DNA from: an uncultured Clostridia bacterium
Lineage (GTDB): Bacteria > Bacillota > Clostridia > Christensenellales > UBA1242
Assembly: GCA_946496065.1 (NCBI GenBank)
Contig: CAMMFF010000005.1
Span: 11,397-75,396, forward strand
Length of the DNA: 64,000 bases
Reading direction: 5' to 3'
Part shown: positions 14,924 through 58,660 of the stretch, piece by piece
Numbering within the stretch: the stretch's first letter is position 1
Layout of the letters: every line of letters starts with the position of its first letter
The notes under the pieces: generated by a model
The model's input: the letters and a program-made list of their open reading frames with translations, nothing else
Databases searched by the model: none
Told to the model about the DNA's origin: nothing
Translations under genes and position numbers: made by a program

Positions 14924-15009
14924 TGGTGCAGAAGATGGGAGTTGAACCCACAAGATGTTGCCATCACAGGTACCTGAAACCTGCGCGTCTGCCATTCCGC
15001 CACTTCTGC
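14924..15009 (-). tRNA. tRNA-Leu (anticodon CAG)
   Basis: Hand-folded 86-nt cloverleaf including encoded CCA. Anticodon loop TTCAGGT, long variable arm, T-arm GTGGGTTCAACTCCCAT. Confidence 0.9.
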
Positions 15010-36902: not shown

Positions 36903-37001
36903 TTATATCATATATAGGGAGAAAAAACAATTTGTTTGGTGCATATTTTTGCTAAAATTTTGACAAAATTTGGACTGAAAAAAGAAAAATAAGGTTTGAT
37001 A

Positions 37002-37030
37002 TTGACAAAGCAAAAAAAGCGTGTTATAAC
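37002..37030 (+). promoter_or_regulatory. promoter of the Fic-like gene
   Basis: TTGACA (37002-37007), 17 nt, TGT-TATAAC (37025-37030). Confidence 0.5.
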
Positions 37031-37049
37031 ATCTATATTCGAGGTAAAA

Positions 37050-38192
37050 ATGAAGGCAATAAAGATAAAAAAATTTTTAAAACAAGATGAACAAGAAAGA
37101 TTGGCATTCAATCGCAGATTTGCTCGTGTAACACATGATTTAGGTGAAGAAGGTGTCGAACCTTGGATTCTTTATAGGGACAAAACCACGGTTTTTGTAA
37201 ATGGAAGGGCAAAGAAAAAACATAAATTTTCAAGTTTTTATTGCTTTGAAGAAAGAGATTATTCTGAATTAAACAAATTGCTAAACAGAATTAATCAAAA
37301 GATAGAAATGGTAAGAAAAACCGTGAAAAGAGGCGAAAAAATTGACAAAGTTGAAGATATTATGCGAGGAGTTATCTATGAAGTGAACAAAAATCAAGAT
37401 AGCGAATGTTACAAAGCCAATCAACTTTATAAAAAGAGTGTCAAAAAATATGTAAAAAAAATTTTTGAATATTATCAATCGCATCCATTTGATTCAAGTG
37501 AATGCTCTCGTATGTGGCTTCAGGCATATAGAGAAATGGTTGAGCAATCACAATTTCAAGAATTTGATGATGTAATAAAAAAGAATTATTTGACATTTGA
37601 TACAGCATTTCAATTTATTTTTGATTATGGATATTTCAGAAAGTATGACAAAACATCAGCGGAAGATTATTTAAATTTCATAATGGATACGTATGCCTTG
37701 GCTTCAAATAATGAATATCCAACCTATAGAGATTGCACTGCACGCATAAGAAATGGAAGTTGGATTCCTGTAAATCAAGAAATTATAAGAGAGGGTATGG
37801 AGATTTTGACTGATTGGTTTACAAATGATGTAAAAAGCAATAATCTTTATCCAATTGAAAGAGCATGCATTATGCATTGTGAACTTGTTAGGATGCAGGC
37901 ATTCCCTGACGGAAATCATAGAATTGCGAGATTGATAGCAAATGAAACTTTGATTGAATCTGATTTCCCATCAATTTCAATTGATTTTGACAAAAGAAAG
38001 GAATATAACGCCGCAACAAATAAGGCGATTGAAACTCATGAAATTGATGATTTGATTGAAATATACTATCAACAAGCATATCAAAATGCTTTAAAGATAG
38101 ATAGGTGTTTGGACAGTTTGATTCAAAAAGAAGATGAGAAGAATGAAAGTAGAGAGACAAAACAGCCAGTATCATTAGAAAAACAACCATAA
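37050..38192 (+). CDS. Fic-domain protein with a degenerate active-site motif
   Basis: Fic core ...HCELVRMQAFPDGNHRIARLIANE. The motif reads QxFxDGNHRxxR instead of HxFx(D/E)GNGRxxR (nt 37896-37931). GAGG SD. Confidence 0.7.
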   Translation: MKAIKIKKFLKQDEQERLAFNRRFARVTHDLGEEGVEPWILYRDKTTVFVNGRAKKKHKFSSFYCFEERDYSELNKLLNRINQKIEMVRKTVKRGEKIDKVEDIMRGVIYEVNKNQDSECYKANQLYKKSVKKYVKKIFEYYQSHPFDSSECSRMWLQAYREMVEQSQFQEFDDVIKKNYLTFDTAFQFIFDYGYFRKYDKTSAEDYLNFIMDTYALASNNEYPTYRDCTARIRNGSWIPVNQEIIREGMEILTDWFTNDVKSNNLYPIERACIMHCELVRMQAFPDGNHRIARLIANETLIESDFPSISIDFDKRKEYNAATNKAIETHEIDDLIEIYYQQAYQNALKIDRCLDSLIQKEDEKNESRETKQPVSLEKQP

Positions 38193-38272: not shown

Positions 38273-38349
<77 letters not shown>

Positions 38350-39118: not shown

Positions 39119-39982
39119 TTAAATAATCAAAGTGCTTATTAAACAAAAGAATGCCACAAAGAATGCCATGTTGTCGAAATTGCTCTTTACGAAAGCAGAA
39201 AGCCCAACATAAACACAATAAATCAGTGCTCCAACTGAGAAAAGAATGTTTGTCAAGTTGAAAGAGAACAAAAGCACTGTGGCAATTTGCCCGATAATTA
39301 TTCCTATTGCAAGAAACATGAAGAAATAACTTAAAACATCATATGGATTGATTGTTTTTTTGATTATTAAAAGCAAGAACAATAGTGCACAGGCAAGGGC
39401 AACGCCGATTAAAAATCCATAAAATGTTTCCATGCCAATGTAAACACCAGCAAGCCCCAAACAAATCGAGGTCATCACCATTGCAACTGATTTCAAAAGA
39501 AGACCATTGCTGTTTAAAAAGTGGTGTTTTGATTCTTTTTTTCTTTTTTTCTTTTTTTCTTTTTTCTTCTTGTTTTCAGCATCAGAGAAGTTTTCTTCAG
39601 AAACATTTTCTTCCGAAATATTTTCAGTTACATTTTTTTCAATCTCTGTGATTTCTTCAATGTTTGTTTCTGTATTTTCTTCTGTTTTGATTGCTTTGGT
39701 CTTTAGATATTCTGACAAGTCAAACAAAGAGATGAATTGTGGAATGATTGCCAAAATAAGAAAGATTGTGTAGCCCGAAAAGTTGTTTTTGTAGTTCCCG
39801 GCAACCAAGCCCAAACAAACAAGCGCAATCAAAGACAATGTTTGCAACAAGAAATACAATGTCTTGTTCTTTTTAGAAAAACAGACACTGACAGCCAAGA
39901 TTGCTGCTGCAACAAACATACAAATTAGGGCGCCCATTAACATATTTTTATTATAAACAAAATTTTGTAAATTGTCCAACAA
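39119..39982 (-). CDS. polytopic membrane protein with a central acidic/lysine-rich loop
   Basis: Multiple hydrophobic helices on both sides of ...EENVSEENFSDAENKKKKEKKKKRKKE. The start is uncertain (TTG 39982 or ATG 39943). Confidence 0.55.
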   Translation of the reverse strand: MLDNLQNFVYNKNMLMGALICMFVAAAILAVSVCFSKKNKTLYFLLQTLSLIALVCLGLVAGNYKNNFSGYTIFLILAIIPQFISLFDLSEYLKTKAIKTEENTETNIEEITEIEKNVTENISEENVSEENFSDAENKKKKEKKKKRKKESKHHFLNSNGLLLKSVAMVMTSICLGLAGVYIGMETFYGFLIGVALACALLFLLLIIKKTINPYDVLSYFFMFLAIGIIIGQIATVLLFSFNLTNILFSVGALIYCVYVGLSAFVKSNFDNMAFFVAFFCLISTLII

Positions 39983-44883: not shown

Positions 44884-44949
44884 AAATTCTCCATAATAAT
44901 TTGGAGAGATGGGTCATTCCACCTCTCCTTGATAATTTCAATTTTCAGT

Positions 44950-47900
44950 TTATCCGCCAGCTTCACGACCTCGACCAGCTCCGCCAGCTTCACGACCTCT
45001 TCCCCTTTCAGATCTTCTCCTTCTTTCTTCTTCAGACAATTCTTCTCCCTCTGTTTCGTGTTCTTCTTCTGATGGAAGTTCTCCAAGAGAATAATCTTCC
45101 ATAATGGCATCACTTCCAGTGGCGTGCTTTCTTCTTTCGTTAGCCTCATCGACATTTCTATCAAATTCATCTTTTCTTCTTTGAAGATCTTGTTCTTCAT
45201 TTTCTAATCGACGGATTTCTTCGTCCCTTGCAGATCTTTGTTCATCAACTTCTCTACTTCTTCCGTCTAAGATTCCTTGTGCTTCTTCCTTCTCTCTTGT
45301 TAAAGTCTCAATTCTTGAACCATATTCTGCAATTTCTCTTTCATATCCTTCAACAGTCTTTCCTTTCTTTTTCTTCATTTTAGCACGAAGTTTTTTAAGT
45401 TTTTCAAGTTCCTCAGGGGAAAGAGATCCTTCATCTCTAGCTTCAAGAGCATCTAATTCAGCCTTATCTCTTTCGAATTCTTCTTTTTCTTCAGTCAATT
45501 CGGACATTTTTGTTGTTGCTGCATTAAGCTCTTTTTCTTTGTTTTCGTTAGTTTTTTGCAAAGCAGAAAGATCGGCATCTTCGGCTTTTTGAATTTGTTC
45601 GTCTCTTTTTCTTCTTGATTCAATCACTTCTTTTGAAAGAGCAATTTGTTTTTCCAGTTTTGCTGATTGAATATTCAATTCTTGATTTGAAACATCAATC
45701 TGAAGTCGCTCAACTTCAACACGAGCCGAGTTGATTTCTTTGTCTATTTTTTCTAGTTTTTTACGACGTTGAGATTCAGATAAGGTTGGATCAGTTTCAA
45801 TTCTACGACGTTGCTCATTTAAGTAATTCAATTTATTTCTTTGCTTAACCAAATCACCTTTCGTTTTTGTGAGTCCCTGTTGCAACTCTTTTTCTTTGTC
45901 TTTGCCAGGTTTGTATGTGTGTTGTTTTTTATATCTTCTTTCTTTGTTTGCTTTATGAACACTGACAATCCATGGGCGAACCTCGTTGACAATTGCTGCA
46001 CCTGCAAAAACTATTGATCCGATTGCAAGCCAAGGTACCAATATTGACATTAAAGTGCATAGAGCAAATAATCCTATCAACATGTTTCTGACACCATTCT
46101 TTTTTGGAGGTTTGATTGGGTCAAGTTTTTCTTTCCAATCAATAGGCTTGATAGGTTCTTCCGGTTCAGGATCTTCAGGAGGAGGTGGATTTCCTCCTCC
46201 GCCACCTCCTCTATCAATTATAGTTGTTGTTCTTTCTCTATCAACAACAGGTGGGTCCATAAGAGTTGGTGATCTAGAAATCAAATGCTCTTCTTCTCTT
46301 TCTCTAGGTTTTCTCGTAAGAATAGCTATGTCACCATAAGATAACACAGTTGCCTTCCTTTCTTTTGGTCTTGGATAAATGAGATAATTTTCATCACCAA
46401 CTTTTCGCTCTGCGCCATCAAATAAAGGTTTAGTTTTTTCTTCTTCCTCTATTCTTTCGTTAAATTCTTTCTCTAAGATATCGGTTTTTAGAGATCTCAA
46501 GATTTCTGAATTTTCATCATAGTTTATATCAATATTAATACGAACTACATCTTTTCCATCTTTTAGTCCCAGATATAAAGATGGATTTTCAATTGAATCT
46601 AAAGTTGAAGATGCGCTTTCTTCAAGATGAGCAATATCGATTTCATAAAATTTAGGAATTTTTGCAGATTTTACGCTTTCACCTGTGATATGAAGATAAG
46701 CATATGATTTCCCTTCTCTGTCAATTCTTATGTTCAGATATTCAGGAGATGTTGAGCCATCTTCATTTTTTACTTTGATTGGGACAGAATATAATTTTTC
46801 TTCTGGAGAAGAAGAACCTTCAGGCAAAGTTACACTGACAATTTTGTCAGGTTCAGTGGATTTGTTTCTTTCAAGTTGAATTCTTGAAATCAAAAGAGCC
46901 TCATAACTTACTCCAAATCTATCGTATGAACAAGTTTTTTCAATATCGCTCTTTTCTGTTTCTGGCTTTAGAACTGTTGATAAGAAATCGGTTGTAACTC
47001 CAATATTGAATGGATTTTCTTCGTTTTTGACCATTCCAAAATGTTTGTTTTTGTCAACAATTTGACAACCGAGAGCAGAAAATAGAACTGCAAATTCAGA
47101 TCCTGCACCTCTAATTTGCACATCACTGATATTCAAATCTTGTGACAATTTGAGTTTGTCAACTTCATAAACAACATAATCCCCATCAGCAGAACCATCT
47201 GGAATTTCCACTTCTGGATTTTTAGCACGAAAATCATCAATAAATTCTTTTGAAACTTTAAATTGGATGGTCGGAATTTCTCTTCCTTCTTCTGTTTTTG
47301 TTCCCTTTGTGAAAATAGCCACGGGAGCAGATTTATCTTCCGATGTAACCATCAAAAGAGCATCTTTGAGGATTGTTGCACCAGAGCTGGTATAAGATGT
47401 TGAATCAAATAATGTTATTTTTTGAGCACTGCTTAATCCTAATTTTTTAGCTTCAATTTCTTGACTGAAACCGGTTATTGATTCCTCTCCAATTGTTAAT
47501 GTTTGAGATTCTAATGCCTGCCCAGTCCTTTTTGCTCTTACAAGTTTGTCTTCTTCAGACAATTCTCCTGTTAGAGGCATTTCTGGATTTAAACTTTCAT
47601 CAAATGCCGGGTTACTAACTCTTGGACAATCATAAACTTCTATTTCGGTATGTCTTATGTTCGTGTGTGCAAGAAGAGCATTCAAATCAGTTAATAACTG
47701 TTCATTTCTTTCCTTTGGAATTGGAAAGTTAACACTACGCTTTCTGCCATTTACTTCAAGTTCTAAAGAAAGAATTTCCTTATCTTCAACTGTAACAAAA
47801 GAAGCAGAAAAAATTTGACAGGTTGTGCTTTTGTTCCTATCTGTTTCGTCAAATCCCTTAATGTTTAAATAAAGATTTTCACCTTGTTGAATTAAAACCA

Positions 47901-50061
47901 AATGACTGTCTTTATTGTCTGCAGTCTTGTAAGGAAGAAAAATATATGAAATGTCTCCTGCTTTGTAAATTAAGTTTCCAGGAATTCTTCTTGGACCAAT
48001 GGTTTCCGTTCTTGTTTCTGTCCTAGGCTCTCTTCTTCGCTCTCCGCTTCCACCGCTTCCACCAGCGGAATCATCGCGAACAAGTTCCGGAAGATCTTTT
48101 GTTATTGTTGTGAATTCTGGAATTTTGTCGTCTTTAATTTCTTTAGTGTCTTCAAGAGTATAGTTTGCAATTTTTTGAAAATTTCTGAAGAAGATTTCAT
48201 TGTTGCTTACTGTTATTGGAAGAATAACTACAGAATTTTCATGGTTTTGTTCAATTCCAAATGCAAGATGTTGTTCTCCATCAACATCTCTCAAACCTTG
48301 AGTTAAAATTTTGCAGCGAGTTGTTTCTTTAGGGTCTTCTTTGAAACCAGCAACGTTAACAAACAAACCATCATCGGCAACAATAATTTCCAGATAGTCT
48401 AGTTCAGTTCCATTGTTTTTTGTGTATGGAACATAAAGATAGAAGTCCTCAGTTTTTTCATCCAAATGAGAAAGAACTGTTTTCAAGTCTTTATCAGGAA
48501 CTCTACTTCTTCTTGACGAACGAGAAGGGGGAGTTGGTCTTCGAGTGTGGTCCTCAGAATGTTCTTCCAATATTGGAGGAGTGTCACTTTCAAAAGTTGT
48601 GATAAGGGAAGTTATAACTGGGTTGCTGGCAAACCTTTCATCGGCTCTCCAAATTTCCAAATCATGCAAGAATGAATCTCGCCAACCAAGTTCATAAATC
48701 TTACGAGCCGTTTCCGTTGGAATAGGGGAATTCTCTTCAACAAGTTTGGTTATAAGTGCTGATTGCAACCAACCTGTTAAGTTTGTTCTCTCGTCTCTGA
48801 AGTCATGTCTGCAGTTGTCGAGAAGTAATGCTTTTGATGGTGTCAAATGCGTTATAACTTCGTTGAGTGTGCTTAAATCAAGAGTTCCAAAAGTGTCTGC
48901 AAATCTTTGTGCAGTTTCATTGTACCTTGCATAAATCTCAGGATTTGCGGTTTCAAGTGTATCATAATCCAAGTCAGCAAATGGCAATAGATCAAGAACG
49001 TTCAATCCGCCAACTCCATCTCTTGTTGCGTCAATTTGTTCTTGACCAAATGGAGTGTCTAAGAATCGCCCTTCTGAATTGTGATGCCAGCCCATTCTGA
49101 CGTCCCATTCACGACAATCATCGTTGCATGCTGACAAAATTCTTGTATCAAGTTCTGACAGGGGCACATTTGGAACTTGAGAATTTGCTCTTATTCTCTC
49201 AGGATTTGTTGAACGAGTCAGTGAAGGAACTTTCAAAACTTGTGTTGTGTAATATGTGCAAAGTTCTGCAGGTGTCATTCCATACTTTGAAGCCATCGCT
49301 TTGACAAGTTCGTGATCCAAAAGATGCTTTGACCCTAAAATTGAATATGCAACAGGCTGAATATTGTTCTCTGTGCAAAATCTCACTCTTTCTTCTTCAT
49401 TATGTCCAATCAAAAGAGGCATTTGCATAACTTGTGGCATTTGCAAATGTTCTAATTCACAAATTTCTTTCAACCTGTTCAGTGCCTGAATCGAAAAGTT
49501 TGAAACCCCGATGGTTTTGATTTTTCCTGCTTGATAATATTCATTCAAAACCTGCCATTGAAGAAGGACGCTGTTCATATATTCGCTTTCGTGGCCCTCT
49601 TCCATTTCATTCCATGGTGCTGGAGAATGAATGTAGTAACAATCAATATAATCATGCTCACCAGTCAAACCAAGAGCGGCAAAACTTTTCTCTACTTCTG
49701 TTCTTATGCGTGCCTTTTCTCTCTCCGCATCCGCTTCAGTCATAGATCCGAGCTCAGCATCTGATTTTGCGGTGCCAGGATTAAGTTTGGAAGAAATAAA
49801 AATCTTATCTCTTGCAAGGCCTCCAGCCAAAGCACGTTGAATGGCTCTTCCAACATATTCTTCATTTCCATATCCCTGTGCAGTGTCAATGGCAACATAT
49901 CCAGCAGAAAGGGCATCAGAAACTGCTTTTTCTGTATTTGTTTCATCAAGCATCCAAGTTCCTTGACCAATCATTGGGATTTTTATAGTTTCAGTTGAGT
50001 CACCTCTTGTAACAGTGATTTCCTTGAAACTTTCAGTCAGGTTCAACTTATCGTCTGCCAT
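44950..50061 (-). CDS. 1703-aa chimeric protein: aldo/keto reductase domain + orphan repeat modules + membrane hairpin + charged coiled coil
   Basis: AGGAGG lies 5 nt upstream of ATG 50061. AKR motifs sit at nt ~49160-49990 (GYVAIDTAQGYGNEEYVG, YYIHSP, IGVSNF). A hydrophobic segment lies at 45985-46087. The C-terminal 340 aa are K/E/R-rich. Confidence 0.85.
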   Translation of the reverse strand: MADDKLNLTESFKEITVTRGDSTETIKIPMIGQGTWMLDETNTEKAVSDALSAGYVAIDTAQGYGNEEYVGRAIQRALAGGLARDKIFISSKLNPGTAKSDAELGSMTEADAEREKARIRTEVEKSFAALGLTGEHDYIDCYYIHSPAPWNEMEEGHESEYMNSVLLQWQVLNEYYQAGKIKTIGVSNFSIQALNRLKEICELEHLQMPQVMQMPLLIGHNEEERVRFCTENNIQPVAYSILGSKHLLDHELVKAMASKYGMTPAELCTYYTTQVLKVPSLTRSTNPERIRANSQVPNVPLSELDTRILSACNDDCREWDVRMGWHHNSEGRFLDTPFGQEQIDATRDGVGGLNVLDLLPFADLDYDTLETANPEIYARYNETAQRFADTFGTLDLSTLNEVITHLTPSKALLLDNCRHDFRDERTNLTGWLQSALITKLVEENSPIPTETARKIYELGWRDSFLHDLEIWRADERFASNPVITSLITTFESDTPPILEEHSEDHTRRPTPPSRSSRRSRVPDKDLKTVLSHLDEKTEDFYLYVPYTKNNGTELDYLEIIVADDGLFVNVAGFKEDPKETTRCKILTQGLRDVDGEQHLAFGIEQNHENSVVILPITVSNNEIFFRNFQKIANYTLEDTKEIKDDKIPEFTTITKDLPELVRDDSAGGSGGSGERRREPRTETRTETIGPRRIPGNLIYKAGDISYIFLPYKTADNKDSHLVLIQQGENLYLNIKGFDETDRNKSTTCQIFSASFVTVEDKEILSLELEVNGRKRSVNFPIPKERNEQLLTDLNALLAHTNIRHTEIEVYDCPRVSNPAFDESLNPEMPLTGELSEEDKLVRAKRTGQALESQTLTIGEESITGFSQEIEAKKLGLSSAQKITLFDSTSYTSSGATILKDALLMVTSEDKSAPVAIFTKGTKTEEGREIPTIQFKVSKEFIDDFRAKNPEVEIPDGSADGDYVVYEVDKLKLSQDLNISDVQIRGAGSEFAVLFSALGCQIVDKNKHFGMVKNEENPFNIGVTTDFLSTVLKPETEKSDIEKTCSYDRFGVSYEALLISRIQLERNKSTEPDKIVSVTLPEGSSSPEEKLYSVPIKVKNEDGSTSPEYLNIRIDREGKSYAYLHITGESVKSAKIPKFYEIDIAHLEESASSTLDSIENPSLYLGLKDGKDVVRINIDINYDENSEILRSLKTDILEKEFNERIEEEEKTKPLFDGAERKVGDENYLIYPRPKERKATVLSYGDIAILTRKPREREEEHLISRSPTLMDPPVVDRERTTTIIDRGGGGGGNPPPPEDPEPEEPIKPIDWKEKLDPIKPPKKNGVRNMLIGLFALCTLMSILVPWLAIGSIVFAGAAIVNEVRPWIVSVHKANKERRYKKQHTYKPGKDKEKELQQGLTKTKGDLVKQRNKLNYLNEQRRRIETDPTLSESQRRKKLEKIDKEINSARVEVERLQIDVSNQELNIQSAKLEKQIALSKEVIESRRKRDEQIQKAEDADLSALQKTNENKEKELNAATTKMSELTEEKEEFERDKAELDALEARDEGSLSPEELEKLKKLRAKMKKKKGKTVEGYEREIAEYGSRIETLTREKEEAQGILDGRSREVDEQRSARDEEIRRLENEEQDLQRRKDEFDRNVDEANERRKHATGSDAIMEDYSLGELPSEEEHETEGEELSEEERRRRSERGRGREAGGAGRGREAGG
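44953..44999 (-). repeat. 27-nt tandem repeat encoding GRGREAGGA x2 at the 3' end of the giant gene
   Basis: TCCGCCAGCTTCACGACCTC occurs at 44953 and again at 44980. Confidence 0.85.
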
Positions 50062-50255
50062 GTAATCCTCCTAAAAACATTTTTATAAGTTTATCATAAT
50101 GTGTGTATTTTGTCAATTATTGTAGGAAAAATAGCGGGGCAAAAATTAATTGATTCGAAAATGTTTGTTATTGCTAAATTAGGGAGCAAAAAACTTGTTT
50201 TTTTTTATTATTTTTGCTATTATTGATATAATTATTGCAAGATAAGGAGATTTTA

Positions 50256-53041: not shown

Positions 53042-53076
53042 TTTTGTTATAATTTCAAGTTTTTAAGGAGAGATTG

Positions 53077-53655
53077 ATGGAAAAGAAAAAATGTGACAAA
53101 ACAATCAAATTCGCGATTAAGTGGTGGACAGACATTCTTTCGGGCAAAGAAAGTGCAAGGTCTTTTTATGAAGAAATGAAAAATGATTTGGAAGACATTA
53201 AAGAAAATCACGAGTCGGCATATAATTTTCTGAAACAGGCCATAGAACAACTTGATGAAGAAATGGAAAAAGATCGGTCAAACGCATATCTCAATTCAGA
53301 ACAAATCAGAAGATTGGAAGAACAACTTAGTTTTCGCATAAAAAATTGTTTAGAAAAAGATGGATATGCATATCTTTACACAGATGAAGATGCCAGAGCA
53401 AATGGCGTGCTTGGTCTTGCAACTTATTATGCAGGCATCAGAAATGAAGGAAATCTTGGGGAAGAACCAAGCCCATTCCCTGATGGTGTGGAGATGTGGA
53501 TTGAGCCTGGCAAAGTGGAAATCAGATATGATGAAAATGGAATGTTTAACCCAGTATATCAAGAAGTATCTCAAGAAGTTGAAAAACCAAAACTCTCACA
53601 AGAAACCATTGAATTGATTCAACGCAAGATTGATGAAGGCAGGGGCGGAAAATAA
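53077..53655 (+). CDS. hypothetical cytoplasmic protein (192 aa)
   Basis: AAGGAG lies 6 nt upstream of ATG 53077. The N-terminal half is helical and acidic. No family recognised. Confidence 0.6.
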   Translation: MEKKKCDKTIKFAIKWWTDILSGKESARSFYEEMKNDLEDIKENHESAYNFLKQAIEQLDEEMEKDRSNAYLNSEQIRRLEEQLSFRIKNCLEKDGYAYLYTDEDARANGVLGLATYYAGIRNEGNLGEEPSPFPDGVEMWIEPGKVEIRYDENGMFNPVYQEVSQEVEKPKLSQETIELIQRKIDEGRGGK

Positions 53656-56041: not shown

Positions 56042-56779
56042 TTAAACTTTTTCTTTTTGTGTTTCGAATTGATTTTCAAAATCTATAAAGCCTTTTTCAA
56101 AAACTTTTGCACCATTATGGAGTTTTTCATCTTTTTTGTCATAAAAAATATCCATGATGTCAATAATTGTTTGATTTGAAACTGCTCTGAAAGATATGAG
56201 TGCTTCAGGTGTATCAAAACGGACTACTTCTTTGTTGAGAAAAGCAAAGTAATGTTGACTGATTAAAGAAACGACATGGTCTGATTTCAAAAATTCTTCA
56301 GGAACAGATTTGAGAGCAGAGTAAACTTTTTCAGGAACTTCAAAATGTCCTTCCACAAAATATTTGATTGCATTCTTTCGTCTGGTTTCAAGAGATTCTT
56401 TTGTGTCTTGAAAAACATCAAGATTTTCACTCCTATAAATTTCTTGGGTGAAATCTGATGCTTTTGCTGCAATGTATTTTTCAATTGGTTCAGCAATTTG
56501 TTGACAGGCAGTTTGAAGAATTGTCATTTCTGTCAAGTTTTTTGTGTGCATATATGAATGAATTTTATTTTTTGGAATTGTGAATTTGACGCAATAATCC
56601 TTAAAAACATTCATAAATGGGCCAACTTCAATCATCAGATTCCCATTTTCGTCCAATCCCATATCTGTCAAATAGAAATTGCAGTCTTTAAATGCTCCTT
56701 TTATGATTTTTCCAGATTTGTTAATCAAACCATCTTCTTGCATTTTTAATTCAAATTGAGTAGGTTTTAATCCTGGCAT
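56042..56779 (-). CDS. hypothetical protein (245 aa)
   Basis: AGGAG SD. No motif recognised. Confidence 0.6.
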   Translation of the reverse strand: MPGLKPTQFELKMQEDGLINKSGKIIKGAFKDCNFYLTDMGLDENGNLMIEVGPFMNVFKDYCVKFTIPKNKIHSYMHTKNLTEMTILQTACQQIAEPIEKYIAAKASDFTQEIYRSENLDVFQDTKESLETRRKNAIKYFVEGHFEVPEKVYSALKSVPEEFLKSDHVVSLISQHYFAFLNKEVVRFDTPEALISFRAVSNQTIIDIMDIFYDKKDEKLHNGAKVFEKGFIDFENQFETQKEKV

Positions 56780-56893
56780 AATAAATCTCCTTTTTCAATA
56801 AAATTATTTTAACATAAAACCGTTTAAATGTCAATATGTTTCAAAAAACATAGAATTTGCATAAAAAAACACATTTTTGTTAAAAATCATGGC

Positions 56894-58660
56894 ATGGATA
56901 AGATCTTTTTTCCGACTTCAAATGGTGTGGTTGTTCATGCTGATGACAAAAAAGTGATTTCCGCCATAAATTGTGACGGACAGAAAAAGTTGAAAAGTTT
57001 CAAAGAAAAAAACAAAATAATATTTTGGCATTTTCCTTTTATGAGGGGGTTCCAATTCTTTTTTTGTGGAATTTTTGGATTTTTTCAAGCACTTTTGCTT
57101 TCTTATGATTTATGTAACGCAAACAAAAAAGTTAAGACAAAAGAAATTAACAAATTCTACACACAAAAATTGATTATTGTTGGTTTGGTTGCACTTTTGG
57201 CCATCATTTTTTCAGCAATAGTGTTGGGCTTGCTACCAGGAAAACTTGGATATTTGATTGTGGACTATAAAGGTAGCGAACTGTTGAGAAATATTGTTAT
57301 TTTTGTTTTTAAATTGATTTTATTCTTTCTTTTTGTTTTGGCACTGCGTGTTTTTCCCGTTGTTGTGGAATGTTTTAGATTTAATAAAGCTGGAGAAATT
57401 GTTTTAAGAGATTTTGAAAAAGACAAAGAAAAATCTCAAAAAAAAGATAAAAATATTAAAAAAATCAAAAATTTGAATTCTTTTATTGTGAAAAATTCGA
57501 ATTTAACACCAAATTTTTTGAATTACTTGATTTTTGTTTTTGTTTTGGATTTTCTTGTGGTAACATTATGGGGAGCAGATTATGGTTTTTGGTTTAACAT
57601 TGCTTTGAATGTTGCAGTGTTTCTTGTTTGTGTGAGTTTGGCTTATGAAATTTTGTGGCTACTGAATTTGCCAAAATGCAAAATAATTGGGAAATTGCAA
57701 TATCTAACCGCTTTTTTAGTTTTCGACAAACCAACGACAACACACATTGAAACGGTTATGGTGGCTATGACAGAAATCAATTTGCTGACCAACCAAAAGG
57801 AAAGAGAGTTTATGGATGACGAAAACAAAAAGGCTTTTTCTGTTGTATATACTCAAGTTAAGAACAAACTTTATAATGCGGGAATTACTGACAAAAGCGA
57901 TGCTGATTGGATTATTGCCACTGTGCTTGGCAAAAACAGAGCAGAAATCAAACTGCTTTCTTTTGTTACAGACAAGCAATATCAAGAAATCATGAAAGCA
58001 ACAGAAAGACGAGCAAAGGGAGAAAGCATAGACAACATATTTGGTTATACAGAATTTTATGGTTTGCGTTTTGATGTAAACAAAAAAGTTCTGACGCCAA
58101 GAATGGAAACGGAAATTTTGGTTGAACAGGTTTTGAAAGCTGAAAAGAACTTTAAAAACGCTACCATTTTGGATTTGGGAACGGGTTCGGGTGCAATTGC
58201 TGTTTCCATTGCAAAAAACTCTGATGCTGATGTGACTGCTGTTGACATAAGCAAGTCTGCTCTTTTGACAGCGGAAGCAAATGCAAAGAAAAATGATGTT
58301 AAAATTGAATTTTTACATTCAAATTTGTTTGATAACTTGAAAAGAAAGCGTAAGTTTGATATAATTGTGTCAAATCCACCATATATCCCAACAAAAGAAA
58401 TTGAAAAATTGGATAAAAATGTCAAAGAGTGCGATCCGGTTCTTGCTTTGGACGGAGGGGAAGATGGACTTGACTTTTATCGAAAGATTGCAGAACATGC
58501 ACCATTGAGATTAAATCAAAATGGTTTGATTTTCTTTGAAGTTGGAAAAGGACAGGCGAAAGCCGTTCGAAAAATTTTGAGGGATAATGGATTCGAAGAT
58601 ATTAAAACAATAAAAGACTATAATAAGATTGAAAGGGTGATTTGTGGAAAACGAAAGTAA
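56894..58660 (+). CDS. prmC: fusion protein: DUF1385-like polytopic membrane domain + release-factor glutamine methyltransferase PrmC
   Basis: The N-terminal ~310 aa carry FPFMRGFQFF... and several TM helices (DUF1385-like). The C-terminal ~280 aa carry DLGTGSGAIAV (SAM-binding) and IIVSNPPYIP (NPPY). Confidence 0.8.
   Translation: MDKIFFPTSNGVVVHADDKKVISAINCDGQKKLKSFKEKNKIIFWHFPFMRGFQFFFCGIFGFFQALLLSYDLCNANKKVKTKEINKFYTQKLIIVGLVALLAIIFSAIVLGLLPGKLGYLIVDYKGSELLRNIVIFVFKLILFFLFVLALRVFPVVVECFRFNKAGEIVLRDFEKDKEKSQKKDKNIKKIKNLNSFIVKNSNLTPNFLNYLIFVFVLDFLVVTLWGADYGFWFNIALNVAVFLVCVSLAYEILWLLNLPKCKIIGKLQYLTAFLVFDKPTTTHIETVMVAMTEINLLTNQKEREFMDDENKKAFSVVYTQVKNKLYNAGITDKSDADWIIATVLGKNRAEIKLLSFVTDKQYQEIMKATERRAKGESIDNIFGYTEFYGLRFDVNKKVLTPRMETEILVEQVLKAEKNFKNATILDLGTGSGAIAVSIAKNSDADVTAVDISKSALLTAEANAKKNDVKIEFLHSNLFDNLKRKRKFDIIVSNPPYIPTKEIEKLDKNVKECDPVLALDGGEDGLDFYRKIAEHAPLRLNQNGLIFFEVGKGQAKAVRKILRDNGFEDIKTIKDYNKIERVICGKRK

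What the first reader, a model, noticed from the sequence alone, without database searches (positions are those of the whole stretch)
44950..50061. 1703-aa chimera: aldo/keto reductase fused to repeated orphan modules, a membrane hairpin and a 340-aa charged coiled coil
Seen in sequence: one uninterrupted ORF with AGGAGG 5 nt upstream and no signal peptide. Its parts, in order:
- aa ~25-300 carry AKR hallmarks (IPMIGQGTW, GYVAIDTAQGYGNEEYVG, DCYYIHSP, IGVSNF).
- A helical region and an RS-rich linker (PPSRSSRRSRVP).
- Two clearly homologous ~95-aa modules, separated by a GGSGGSG / RTETRTE linker. The first is FYLYVPYTKNNG...LFVNVAGFKEDPKETTRCKIL, from nt ~48450 downward. The second is SYIFLPYKTADN...LYLNIKGFDETDRNKSTTCQIF, from nt ~47950 downward.
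- A probable diverged third copy (YLNIRIDREGKSYAYLHITG, nt 46740-46681).
- A GGGGGGNPPPPEDPEPEEP linker.
- About 35 hydrophobic residues (nt 45985-46087), long enough for a re-entrant hairpin.
- About 340 aa of K/E/R-rich heptad-like sequence.
- A GRGREAGGA x2 tail encoded by a 27-nt tandem repeat.

Inference: a cytoplasmic enzyme domain and scaffold tethered to the membrane. I know of no described AKR with this architecture. The gene sits between ychF and secA in otherwise core context.
Basis: partly seen in the sequence, partly recalled or inferred. Interest (0 to 1): 0.7.

Follow-up and report, generated by a model that had tools for sequence, protein, structure and literature searches.

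The report
Hypervariable membrane-anchored giant protein with optional reductase
The 1703-residue gene is real and belongs to an unnamed family of giant proteins from uncultured gut Clostridia, anchored to the inside of the membrane by a hairpin; some versions carry an intact reductase enzyme at the front, and the whole gene is swapped like a cassette between otherwise near-identical genomes.

Summary
Window 44950-50061 (-) is one ORF with, in order:
- an AKR with an intact catalytic tetrad;
- a private helical domain;
- three homologous beta modules (M1, M2, M3) plus two further beta units;
- a disordered Gly/Pro linker;
- a helix-Pro-helix membrane hairpin;
- a 340-aa charged helical tail.

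It is not a misassembly: the fusion recurs in at least six independent, diverged assemblies.

First, the AKR is optional. The gene belongs to an unnamed family (43 representatives at 50% clustering) that always sits between secA and ychF. The family shares the beta core, hairpin and charged tail. N-termini vary: 0-4 N-terminal M copies, and the AKR + helical cassette in one subset only. The core matches nothing in Pfam, NCBIfam, PADLOC, PHROGs or PDB.

Second, the locus is hypervariable. Genomes whose flanks are 98.6% identical carry X alleles that are 44% identical, with saturated silent sites. One allele has the AKR and one lacks it. Breakpoints lie within 30 nt of the ORF ends.

Best reading: a cytoplasmic, membrane-tethered modular scaffold that in this allele carries an active NADPH-dependent reductase. 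Why alleles are switched is unexplained.

The parts
44950..50061 (-). Whole ORF 'X', 1703 aa
   Evidence: orthologous full-length ORFs in L003, L004, L005
50067..50072 (-). Ribosome-binding site AGGAGG, 5 nt before the ATG
   Evidence: read directly
50088..50116 (-). Promoter-like site TTGACA-17-TAAACT with TG, in the intergenic region shared with divergent secA (consensus match only)
49108..49989 (-). Aldo/keto reductase domain (aa 25-318). Catalytic D59, Y64, K92, H145 intact. About 20-aa lineage-specific insertion after K92
48577..49014 (-). Helical domain (aa ~350-495). Found only together with the AKR; no relative outside this fusion. Preceded by a disordered linker at aa 317-348
48457..48564 (-). 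Disordered Arg/Ser/Pro-rich linker (aa 500-535)
   Evidence: pLDDT about 30
48142..48456 (-). M1 beta module (aa 536-640)
47962..48141 (-). Tail of M1 plus GGSGGSG / RTETRTE linker (aa 641-700)
47644..47961 (-). M2 beta module (aa 701-806): seven strands then a C-terminal helix in the model
47221..47550 (-). MIDa unit (aa ~838-947): seven strands then a helix. Start of the family's universal core
46861..47193 (-). MIDb unit (aa ~957-1067). Holds the family's most conserved motif, DFAVLFSALGCQ (G998 nearly invariant)
46459..46839 (-). M3, diverged third copy of the M module (aa ~1075-1201)
46306..46410 (-). Small four-strand unit (aa ~1218-1252)
46099..46302 (-). Disordered Gly/Pro/acidic linker including GGGGGGNPPPPEDPEPEEP (aa ~1254-1321). 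Length-polymorphic: 3-aa indel against P0001
45979..46095 (-). Membrane hairpin (aa 1323-1361): helix 1323-1338, turn around P1343, helix 1345-1361. Family motif L-S-x3-P, with W-K before and K/R-P-W after
45004..45966 (-). Charged helical tail (aa 1366-1686), 48% D/E/K/R, partly heptad-periodic
44953..45006 (-). C-terminal GRGREAGGA x2, encoded by a 27-nt tandem repeat. G-R/K within the last 8 residues recurs in 22 of 43 family members
44903..44928 (-). 10-bp stem-loop between the X stop codon and the ychF start codon (no T-run)

Best explanation
X is one real gene for a giant protein that sits on the cytoplasmic face of the membrane.

Anchoring: a conserved helix-Pro-helix hairpin dips into the membrane. 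Both the roughly 1320-residue N-terminal chain and the roughly 340-residue charged helical tail therefore stay in the cytoplasm.

N-terminal chain: folded units strung on disordered linkers. These are the three M modules, MIDa, MIDb and a small beta unit. Each larger unit is about seven strands capped by a helix, a PH-like order of secondary-structure elements. These units most likely act as binding modules (inferred).

Tail: probably self-associates and ends in a short conserved G-R/K motif that could dock a partner (inferred).

This allele class: an AKR with its private helical domain was added at the N-terminus. The AKR keeps its catalytic tetrad and is under the strongest purifying selection in the protein. 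It most likely works as an NADPH-dependent carbonyl reductase, or as an NADPH sensor, held at the membrane (inferred).

Locus behaviour: the gene is a lineage-wide positional ortholog between secA and ychF. Its alleles are deeply divergent and are replaced as whole cassettes by recombination in the conserved flanks (shown). The selective reason is unknown.
For: Real gene, not a chimera:
- The AKR-to-core fusion recurs in the window, L004, L005, L003 and the contigs of P0002, P0003 and P0008, at 41-99% identity.

Family and synteny:
- 43 representatives were found.
- secA | X - ychF - mini-RNase III - rlmB - sigH-like - glnS is conserved even for members at about 19-25% identity.

Shared architecture:
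- All full-length members (43 of the 47 family sequences retrieved) have no N-terminal TM segment, one hydrophobic segment, and then a charged tail of about 170-830 aa; the other four are short, probably partial sequences with no hydrophobic segment.

Fold:
- AF2 core model: pLDDT 88.5, pTM 0.69.
- N-terminal model: pLDDT 83.9, pTM 0.80.

Hairpin and topology:
- The segment is modelled as two 16-17-residue helices.
- The uncharged core has a median length of 34 aa, a mid-segment Pro occurs in 42/43 members, and both flanks are net positive.
- Trp anchors sit on both flanks.
- There is no signal peptide and no LPxTG motif.

AKR functional:
- The catalytic tetrad is invariant.
- Structural TM to AKR crystal structures is 0.80-0.88.
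- It has the highest identity among orthologs, 75-98%.
- dN/dS is 0.07-0.14.

Cassette behaviour:
- Four-fold-site divergence in X is 2.5-4 times that of the flanks in close genome pairs, but not in conspecific pairs.
- Breakpoints lie 22 nt before the start codon and 29 nt after the stop codon.
- Sliding-window identity falls only inside X.
Against: - No experimental or expression data exist; all members come from metagenomes.
- Topology rests on prediction and charge statistics. The C-flank is only weakly positive (+0.95; 29/43 members positive).
- The PH-like reading rests on the order of secondary-structure elements alone. Whole-chain Foldseek found nothing (TM at most 0.10) and single domains could not be searched.
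- Heptad periodicity is significant in only 2 of 7 tail windows, so self-association through a coiled coil is not established.
- Cassette-like hypervariability is more typical of surface-exposed or conflict proteins than of cytoplasmic scaffolds.
- The AKR substrate is unknown.
Confidence: 0.5

Rival explanations
1. Conflict protein. X is a membrane-located sensor or excluder in phage (or competitor) conflict. The variable beta modules recognise invader proteins, the tail or hairpin acts on the membrane, and the AKR is an optional accessory. Allele switching reflects an arms race.
For: - X alleles are far older than the genome backbone, and whole-cassette replacement has gene-exact breakpoints.
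- Module copy number and N-terminal content vary between alleles.
- dN/dS is highest in the tail and linkers, 0.35-0.5.
Against: - No PADLOC hit was found, apart from a coiled-coil-type DndD match at E 3e-4 in one distant member. There is no PHROG match to the core and no relative on viral contigs.
- X is a single-copy positional ortholog among housekeeping genes across the whole lineage, not a sporadic island gene.
- No recognisable effector domain is present.
- Average dN/dS is below 1 everywhere.
Confidence: 0.2
2. Cell-envelope or morphogenesis scaffold. X is the lineage's own membrane-anchored helical organiser of division or wall synthesis, working like EzrA, MapZ or DivIVA-type proteins. 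Rapid drift comes from low sequence constraint.
For: - It is a single-copy core gene in housekeeping synteny.
- It combines a membrane anchor with a long charged helical tail.
- A short conserved C-terminal motif is suggestive of partner docking.
Against: - Drift alone does not explain silent-site divergence 2.5-4 times that of the flanks, or the lack of excess divergence in conspecific pairs.
- There is no sequence similarity to any named division protein.
- An AKR has no known role in such scaffolds.
Confidence: 0.15
3. Surface protein. The N-terminal chain is exported and displayed, with the Pro-rich stretch spanning the wall. It serves as an adhesin or phage receptor, which would explain serotype-like switching as at the C. 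difficile S-layer cassette.
For: - Hypervariable cassette behaviour next to a secA gene. The C. difficile S-layer cassette includes secA2 and is thought to switch by homologous recombination (PMC6254364).
- A Pro/Gly-rich linker sits just before the hydrophobic segment.
Against: - No signal peptide was found in any of 43 members.
- No LPxTG motif was found in the window protein, and Pfam detects no SLH, CWB2 or other wall-binding domain.
- A conserved, catalytically intact NADPH-dependent AKR would be useless outside the cell.
- The hairpin has positive flanks on both sides.
- The adjacent SecA is the housekeeping type with a SEC-C domain, in ribosomal-protein/prfA context.
Confidence: 0.1
4. 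Artefact. The ORF is an assembly chimera, or a fusion of two genes created by a frameshift.
For: None beyond the unusual architecture.
Against: - The same junction is present in independent assemblies from different samples at 41-99% identity, always in frame.
- AKR-less alleles have no separate AKR gene nearby.
Confidence: 0.01

Closest known systems
Aldo/keto reductase superfamily (closest solved: 2,5-diketo-D-gluconate reductase TM1009 1vp5; trypanosomatid prostaglandin F synthases 1vbj and 4g5d; mycobacterial AKR 2wzm)
   Same: (alpha/beta)8 barrel with TM 0.80-0.88. The D-Y-K-H tetrad and several cofactor-site residues are conserved. The Pfam score is far above the cut-off.
   Different: - At most 36% identity to any free-standing AKR among 5.8 billion clusters, and 25-32% to solved AKRs.
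- About 20-aa insertion after K92.
- Covalently followed by a private helical domain and about 1200 further residues with a membrane anchor.
Kv-beta subunits (AKR6) of voltage-gated K+ channels (comparison from general knowledge)
   Same: An AKR fold held at a membrane-associated assembly, where cofactor state rather than bulk catalysis may matter.
   Different: Kv-beta is a separate eukaryotic subunit that binds the channel non-covalently. Here the AKR is part of a bacterial polypeptide with its own anchor. No relationship beyond the superfamily was found.
C. difficile S-layer cassette (slpA-secA2-cwp66-cd2790), 13 cassette types thought to be exchanged by homologous recombination (PMC6254364, citing Dingle et al. 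2013)
   Same: A sharply bounded block of deeply divergent alleles inside conserved flanks. The alleles differ in gene or domain content and are discordant with the genome backbone. Both loci lie next to a secA gene.
   Different: SlpA is a secreted, wall-bound surface protein with a signal peptide. X has none and is predicted to be cytoplasmic. There is no sequence or domain similarity, and the neighbouring secA here is the housekeeping copy.
Membrane-anchored helical scaffolds of Firmicutes such as EzrA (comparison from general knowledge)
   Same: A single membrane anchor plus a long charged helical region, encoded as a single-copy chromosomal gene.
   Different: EzrA has an N-terminal TM helix and spectrin-like repeats. 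X has a C-proximal hairpin, beta modules and an optional enzyme. No similarity was detected.
Hairpin-anchored monotopic proteins with a central proline (oleosin 'proline knot', caveolin, reticulon type; comparison from general knowledge)
   Same: A hydrophobic segment too long for one span, broken by a conserved central Pro, with both ends on the same side of the membrane.
   Different: The segment here is shorter (median 34 residues). The host is bacterial. There is no sequence relationship. Insertion depth is unknown.

Membership tests
Aldo/keto reductase superfamily (PF00248) | Profile match above the curated threshold | tested here: met
   131.9 bits against a cut-off of 24; aa 31-313 cover profile positions 2-290 of 291
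Aldo/keto reductase superfamily (PF00248) | (alpha/beta)8 TIM-barrel fold | tested here: met
   AF2 pLDDT above 90 over the barrel. Foldseek E about 1e-19, TM 0.80-0.88 normalised to AKR targets
Aldo/keto reductase superfamily (PF00248) | Catalytic tetrad Asp-Tyr-Lys-His | tested here: met
   D59, Y64, K92 and H145 are invariant in an alignment of 5 fused and 10 free AKRs
Aldo/keto reductase superfamily (PF00248) | NAD(P)H binding and carbonyl reduction | not testable with these tools
   Only indirect evidence: conserved G32, G34, N188, Q213, S240, N293 and dN/dS of 0.07-0.14
An existing numbered AKR family (AKR nomenclature: more than 40% identity within a family; criterion from general knowledge) | More than 40% amino-acid identity to a named member | tested here: not met
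   Best free-standing AKRs are 33-36% identical. Solved AKRs are 25-32% identical. NCBIfam DkgA/DkgB scores of 92-95 bits fall far below the cut-offs of 327-425
Sec-exported, wall-anchored Gram-positive surface protein | N-terminal signal peptide | tested here: not met
   The N-terminus is hydrophilic and there is no hydrophobic window before aa 1323. The same holds in the other full-length members
Sec-exported, wall-anchored Gram-positive surface protein | LPxTG sorting motif or wall-binding domain (SLH, CWB2, LysM) | tested here: not met
   No LPxTG-like motif. Pfam finds no domain other than the AKR
PH-like fold (for the M, MIDa and MIDb units) | Seven-strand beta sandwich capped by a C-terminal helix, confirmed by structural superposition | tested here: inconclusive
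   The strand and helix order fits in four successive units. Whole-chain Foldseek gave no match and single domains could not be submitted. Profile searches gave nothing significant; the Tiam1 PH region scored E 0.44
Coiled-coil protein | Sustained heptad periodicity of hydrophobic residues | tested here: inconclusive
   Significant in aa 1492-1547 and 1576-1631 only. The tail is 48% charged with few hydrophobic residues
Known anti-phage defence systems (PADLOC-DB 2.0) | Match to any defence protein model | tested here: not met
   0 families for the window protein and three relatives. One weak DndD coiled-coil match in P0041
Two-helix membrane hairpin with both ends cytoplasmic | Hydrophobic segment with a central helix breaker and positively charged flanks on both sides | tested here: met
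   AF2 helices at aa 1323-1338 and 1345-1361. Mid-segment Pro in 42/43 members. Flank net charges +2.6 and +0.95. The actual topology was not tested experimentally

The most novel reading that the evidence does not exclude
X is the first example of serotype-like, recombinational cassette switching at a locus that encodes an intracellular, membrane-hairpin-anchored protein rather than a surface antigen. On this reading it is a modular sensor or excluder at the inner face of the membrane, in conflict with phages or other invaders. Its beta modules act as swappable recognition units, and the AKR is an optional redox or effector module.
Probability: 0.2. Interest if true: 0.85.

Novelty: new variant of a known kind. 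Interest (0 to 1): 0.62.

Why it matters
- The finding defines a sizeable, entirely unannotated protein family in uncultured gut Clostridia. The predicted structure is confident, yet nothing matches it in Pfam, NCBIfam, PADLOC, PHROGs or PDB.
- It shows an AKR, normally a free soluble enzyme, built into a membrane-tethered giant protein. At 36% identity or less to any free AKR, it would count as a new AKR family.
- The locus behaves like a surface-antigen cassette: ancient alleles, gene-exact recombination breakpoints, and presence or absence of whole domains between genomes that are 98.6% identical next door. Yet every predicted feature places the protein inside the cell.
- If that holds, strong diversifying pressure acts on an intracellular membrane protein. 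That would point to an unrecognised interface with phages or other conflict partners in a prominent, uncultured group of gut bacteria.

Tried and rejected
- Self-BLAST of aa 521-1320 found no off-diagonal repeat. Direct pairwise and profile tests were needed to show the repeats.
- hhalign with 7 sequences did not support the third module. This was overturned with deeper alignments.
- MIDa and MIDb are not detectably related by sequence to M or to each other.
- Whole-chain Foldseek of the core against PDB and BFVD gave only noise, with TM at most 0.10.
- PDB sequence and profile searches with the core, the M module and the MID region gave nothing significant.
- A sub-threshold Pfam scan of 26 M modules found no recurring family.
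- PADLOC and PHROGs found nothing for the core.
- The viral contig scan found no relative.
- The last homolog search, with the MID profile, returned nothing, not even known family members. It is uninformative.
- The N-terminal homolog search did not list the known orthologs either. It was used only to judge the distance to free AKRs.
- The cluster look-up gave no source names.
- A literature search for AKR, coiled-coil and membrane-anchor fusions returned nothing relevant.
- The genome contigs count (3 species) is limited by the search patterns and is only a lower bound.
- A uniformly raised mutation rate was considered as the cause of X divergence. It was rejected because conspecific pairs show no excess.
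Full report

Window 44950..50061 (-) is a single 1703-codon ORF with an ATG start. AGGAGG lies at 50072-50067, followed by a 5-nt spacer. A sigma-70-like match sits at 50116-50088.

Hydropathy finds one hydrophobic stretch only, aa 1323-1361, and none at the N-terminus.

Pfam reports only PF00248 (AKR), at aa 31-313 with E 3e-38. NCBIfam gives DkgA/DkgB-like scores far below their cut-offs, plus coiled-coil noise.

The GRGREAGGA x2 ending is encoded by a 27-nt tandem unit at 45006-44953.

**2. Not a misassembly, and the AKR is optional**

A search with aa 320-1386 found six relatives, all from metagenomes:
- Four carry the AKR (P0001 99%, P0002 67%, P0003 69%, P0004 48%).
- Two start directly at module 1 (P0005, P0006; about 53%). 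This is visible in the alignment.

Their contigs share one gene order: divergent secA, then X, ychF, mini-RNase III, rlmB, a SigH-like sigma factor and glnS. No separate AKR gene lies beside the short forms.

Species-representative genomes give three loci, labelled by their submitters as uncultured Catabacter sp., Clostridia bacterium and Clostridiales bacterium UMGS1447. Both long (1697 aa) and short (1181 aa) forms occur among them. That count is limited by the search patterns and is a lower bound.

The in-frame AKR-to-core junction is thus seen in independent assemblies at 41-99% identity.

**3. A wider, unnamed family**

An exhaustive profile search with the core (aa 536-1365) against 1.84 billion representatives found 43 proteins of 102-1957 aa. 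They share profile positions ~290-830, which correspond to MIDa, MIDb, M3 and the hairpin.

- Of 47 family sequences retrieved, the 43 full-length ones have no N-terminal TM segment, one hydrophobic segment, and a charged tail of about 170-830 aa; four short sequences lack a hydrophobic segment and look partial.
- Among 39 other representatives, only P0008 has an AKR. None has any other credible Pfam domain.
- The most distant members tested (P0013, P0030, P0041; about 19-25% identity) occupy the same secA/ychF slot.
- No source gives any member a name.
- PADLOC and PHROGs have nothing for the core.
- No relative is found on viral contigs.

**4. Anatomy**

*Modules.* M1 and M2 are homologous: 26% identity over 96 aa, z = 13.5, hhalign probability 98.5%.

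The third copy was not significant with seven sequences. Two later tests recover it:
- A profile built only from N-terminal M modules across the family finds aa 1088-1202 at E 2.6e-7, and the equivalent region of P0017 at 2.7e-17.
- hhalign on 40-sequence alignments gives probability 95%, E 3e-8.

The number of N-terminal M copies ranges from 0 to 4 between orthologs.

*Core model.* AlphaFold2 on aa 690-1365 with 40 sequences gave pLDDT 88.5 and pTM 0.69. The model contains:
- four successive units of about seven strands plus a C-terminal helix (M2, MIDa, MIDb, M3);
- a small four-strand unit;
- a disordered Gly/Pro linker;
- two 16-17-residue helices forming the hairpin.

The strand and helix order is PH-like, but this could not be verified. 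Whole-chain Foldseek found nothing in PDB or BFVD, and sequence profiles found nothing in PDB or Pfam.

*N-terminal model.* The model has pLDDT 83.9 and pTM 0.80. It shows:
- an AKR barrel (aa 1-316);
- a disordered linker (aa 317-348);
- a well-folded helical domain (aa ~350-495);
- the disordered RS-rich linker (aa 500-535).

The barrel superposes on AKR structures with TM 0.80-0.88. D59, Y64, K92 and H145 are invariant. The closest free AKRs are 33-36% identical and cover the barrel only. The helical domain occurs only together with the AKR.

**5. Topology**

- Across 43 members, the uncharged core has a median length of 34 residues (range 30-46).
- A Pro lies in the middle third of the core in 42 of 43 members.
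- Mean net charge is +2.6 on the N-flank and +0.95 on the C-flank.
- A Trp precedes the segment and a K/R-P-W follows it.

Add to this the absence of a signal peptide and the presence of an NADPH-dependent enzyme. Together these favour a hairpin with both ends in the cytoplasm. This is an inference, not a measurement.

The tail is 48% charged, with heptad periodicity significant in only two of seven tail windows. G-R/K within the last eight residues occurs in 22 of 43 members, against a 4.6% background.

**6. The unexpected property: a hypervariable cassette**

Amino-acid identity to the window:

| Locus | Flanking proteins (YchF, SecA, RlmB, GlnRS) | X core | X tail |
|---|---|---|---|
| L005 | 98-98.6% | 68% | 41% |
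| L001 | 90-96% | 54% | 35% |
| L007, L009 (full set); L008 (SecA only partly covered) | 76-93% in L007/L009; 72.5-86.5% in L008 | 24-29% | not matched |

dN/dS inside X is 0.04-0.5, lowest in the AKR, M2 and M3 and highest in the linkers and tail.

Silent divergence is also raised. At four-fold sites in codons that encode the same amino acid, window vs L005 gives:

| Region | Four-fold-site divergence |
|---|---|
| Flanks | 0.16 |
| AKR + helical domain | 0.28-0.30 |
| Core and tail | 0.44-0.52 |

The all-pairs comparison is decisive:
- Conspecific pairs show no excess in X (WIN-L004: flanks 0.065, X 0.038; L002-L006: flanks 0.036, X 0.025).
- L003 (AKR form) and L002/L006 (short form) have flanks 98.6% identical with divergence 0.11-0.12. 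Their X alleles are 44% identical with divergence 0.48-0.49.

So a raised mutation rate is excluded. Deeply diverged allele classes, differing even in AKR presence, are distributed discordantly with the genome backbone.

Nucleotide identity between L003 and L002 is 97.8% up to 22 nt before the X start codon. It resumes at 95% 29 nt after the stop codon.

The sliding-window profile of window vs L005:

| Region | Nucleotide identity |
|---|---|
| secA | mostly 92-95% (one window 90.7%, 3' end 86%) |
| AKR | 84-91% |
| Modules | 67-79% |
| Linker and hairpin | 49-65% |
| Tail | 44-54% |
| ychF | 93-96% |

**7. Interpretation**

Shown:
- a real gene;
- an unnamed lineage-wide family;
- modular beta units, a hairpin and a charged tail;
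- an optional but intact and conserved AKR cassette;
- cassette-like allele replacement.

Inferred:
- cytoplasmic location of both arms;
- a binding role for the beta units;
- self-association of the tail;
- reductase or NADPH-sensing activity at the membrane.

The hypervariability is the piece that fits least well with a plain scaffold. Its closest known parallel is the C. difficile S-layer cassette, which includes secA2, has 13 types and is thought to switch by homologous recombination (PMC6254364). That cassette encodes a secreted surface protein, whereas X shows no export signal.

A role in conflict with phages or competitors at the inner membrane face is therefore kept as the main rival and as the most novel reading.

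**8. Verdict**

The tethered cytoplasmic enzyme and scaffold reading stands, but the orphan core, not the AKR, is the ancestral gene.
- Novelty: a divergent AKR (a known kind) in an undescribed architecture, within an undescribed family, at a locus with unusual population behaviour.
- Interest: moderately high.

Noticed in passing
window 53074-53655 (+); compare L001/L002 (no gene there), L007 1552-2247, L009 4166-5074: The slot on the other side of secA, between secA and the rpsF-ssb-rpsR-rpmE block, is also variable. The window has a 193-aa orphan ORF (only a sub-threshold BTG hit). L001 and L002 have nothing there. L007 has a 231-aa ORF with no family. L009 has a beta-lactamase-family gene.
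   Followed up: partly
window 36996-38192 (+): A Fic/DOC-domain protein (PF02661, E 7e-11) lies near gyrB. Fic genes also occur at the equivalent end of the syntenic block in L008 and L009.
   Followed up: partly
window 56828-58660 (+): A 610-aa fusion of DUF1385 with the PrmC (release-factor glutamine methyltransferase) N-terminal and methyltransferase domains, directly upstream of prfA. The same fusion is present in L001, L002 and L009.
   Followed up: partly
window 39119-39982 (-): A 287-aa multi-pass membrane protein with an internal Glu/Lys-rich low-complexity insert (KKKKEKKKKRKKESK). It has no Pfam family. ORFs of similar size with no family sit after glnS in L001, L002 and L007-L009.
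   Followed up: no
window 56042-56779 (-): A 245-aa ORF with no Pfam family lies between rpmE and the DUF1385-PrmC gene. It is conserved in position in L001 (248 aa) and L002 (246 aa).
   Followed up: no
window 46240-46260 (Gly/Pro linker of X), compared with P0001: Length polymorphism inside the low-complexity linker between 99%-identical alleles: GGGGGGN-PPPPEDP in the window against GGGGGGNPPSPPPPEDP in P0001. In addition, P0003 lacks the whole M1 module.
   Followed up: partly
C-termini of family members (window 44953-44976): A short G-R/K motif within the last 8 residues is over-represented across the family: 22/43 members against a 4.6% background in the tails. This suggests a conserved C-terminal docking peptide.
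   Followed up: partly
window 38273-38346 (+) and 14927-15009 (-): Two tRNA genes are the only Rfam matches at gathering threshold in the 64-kb window.
   Followed up: no
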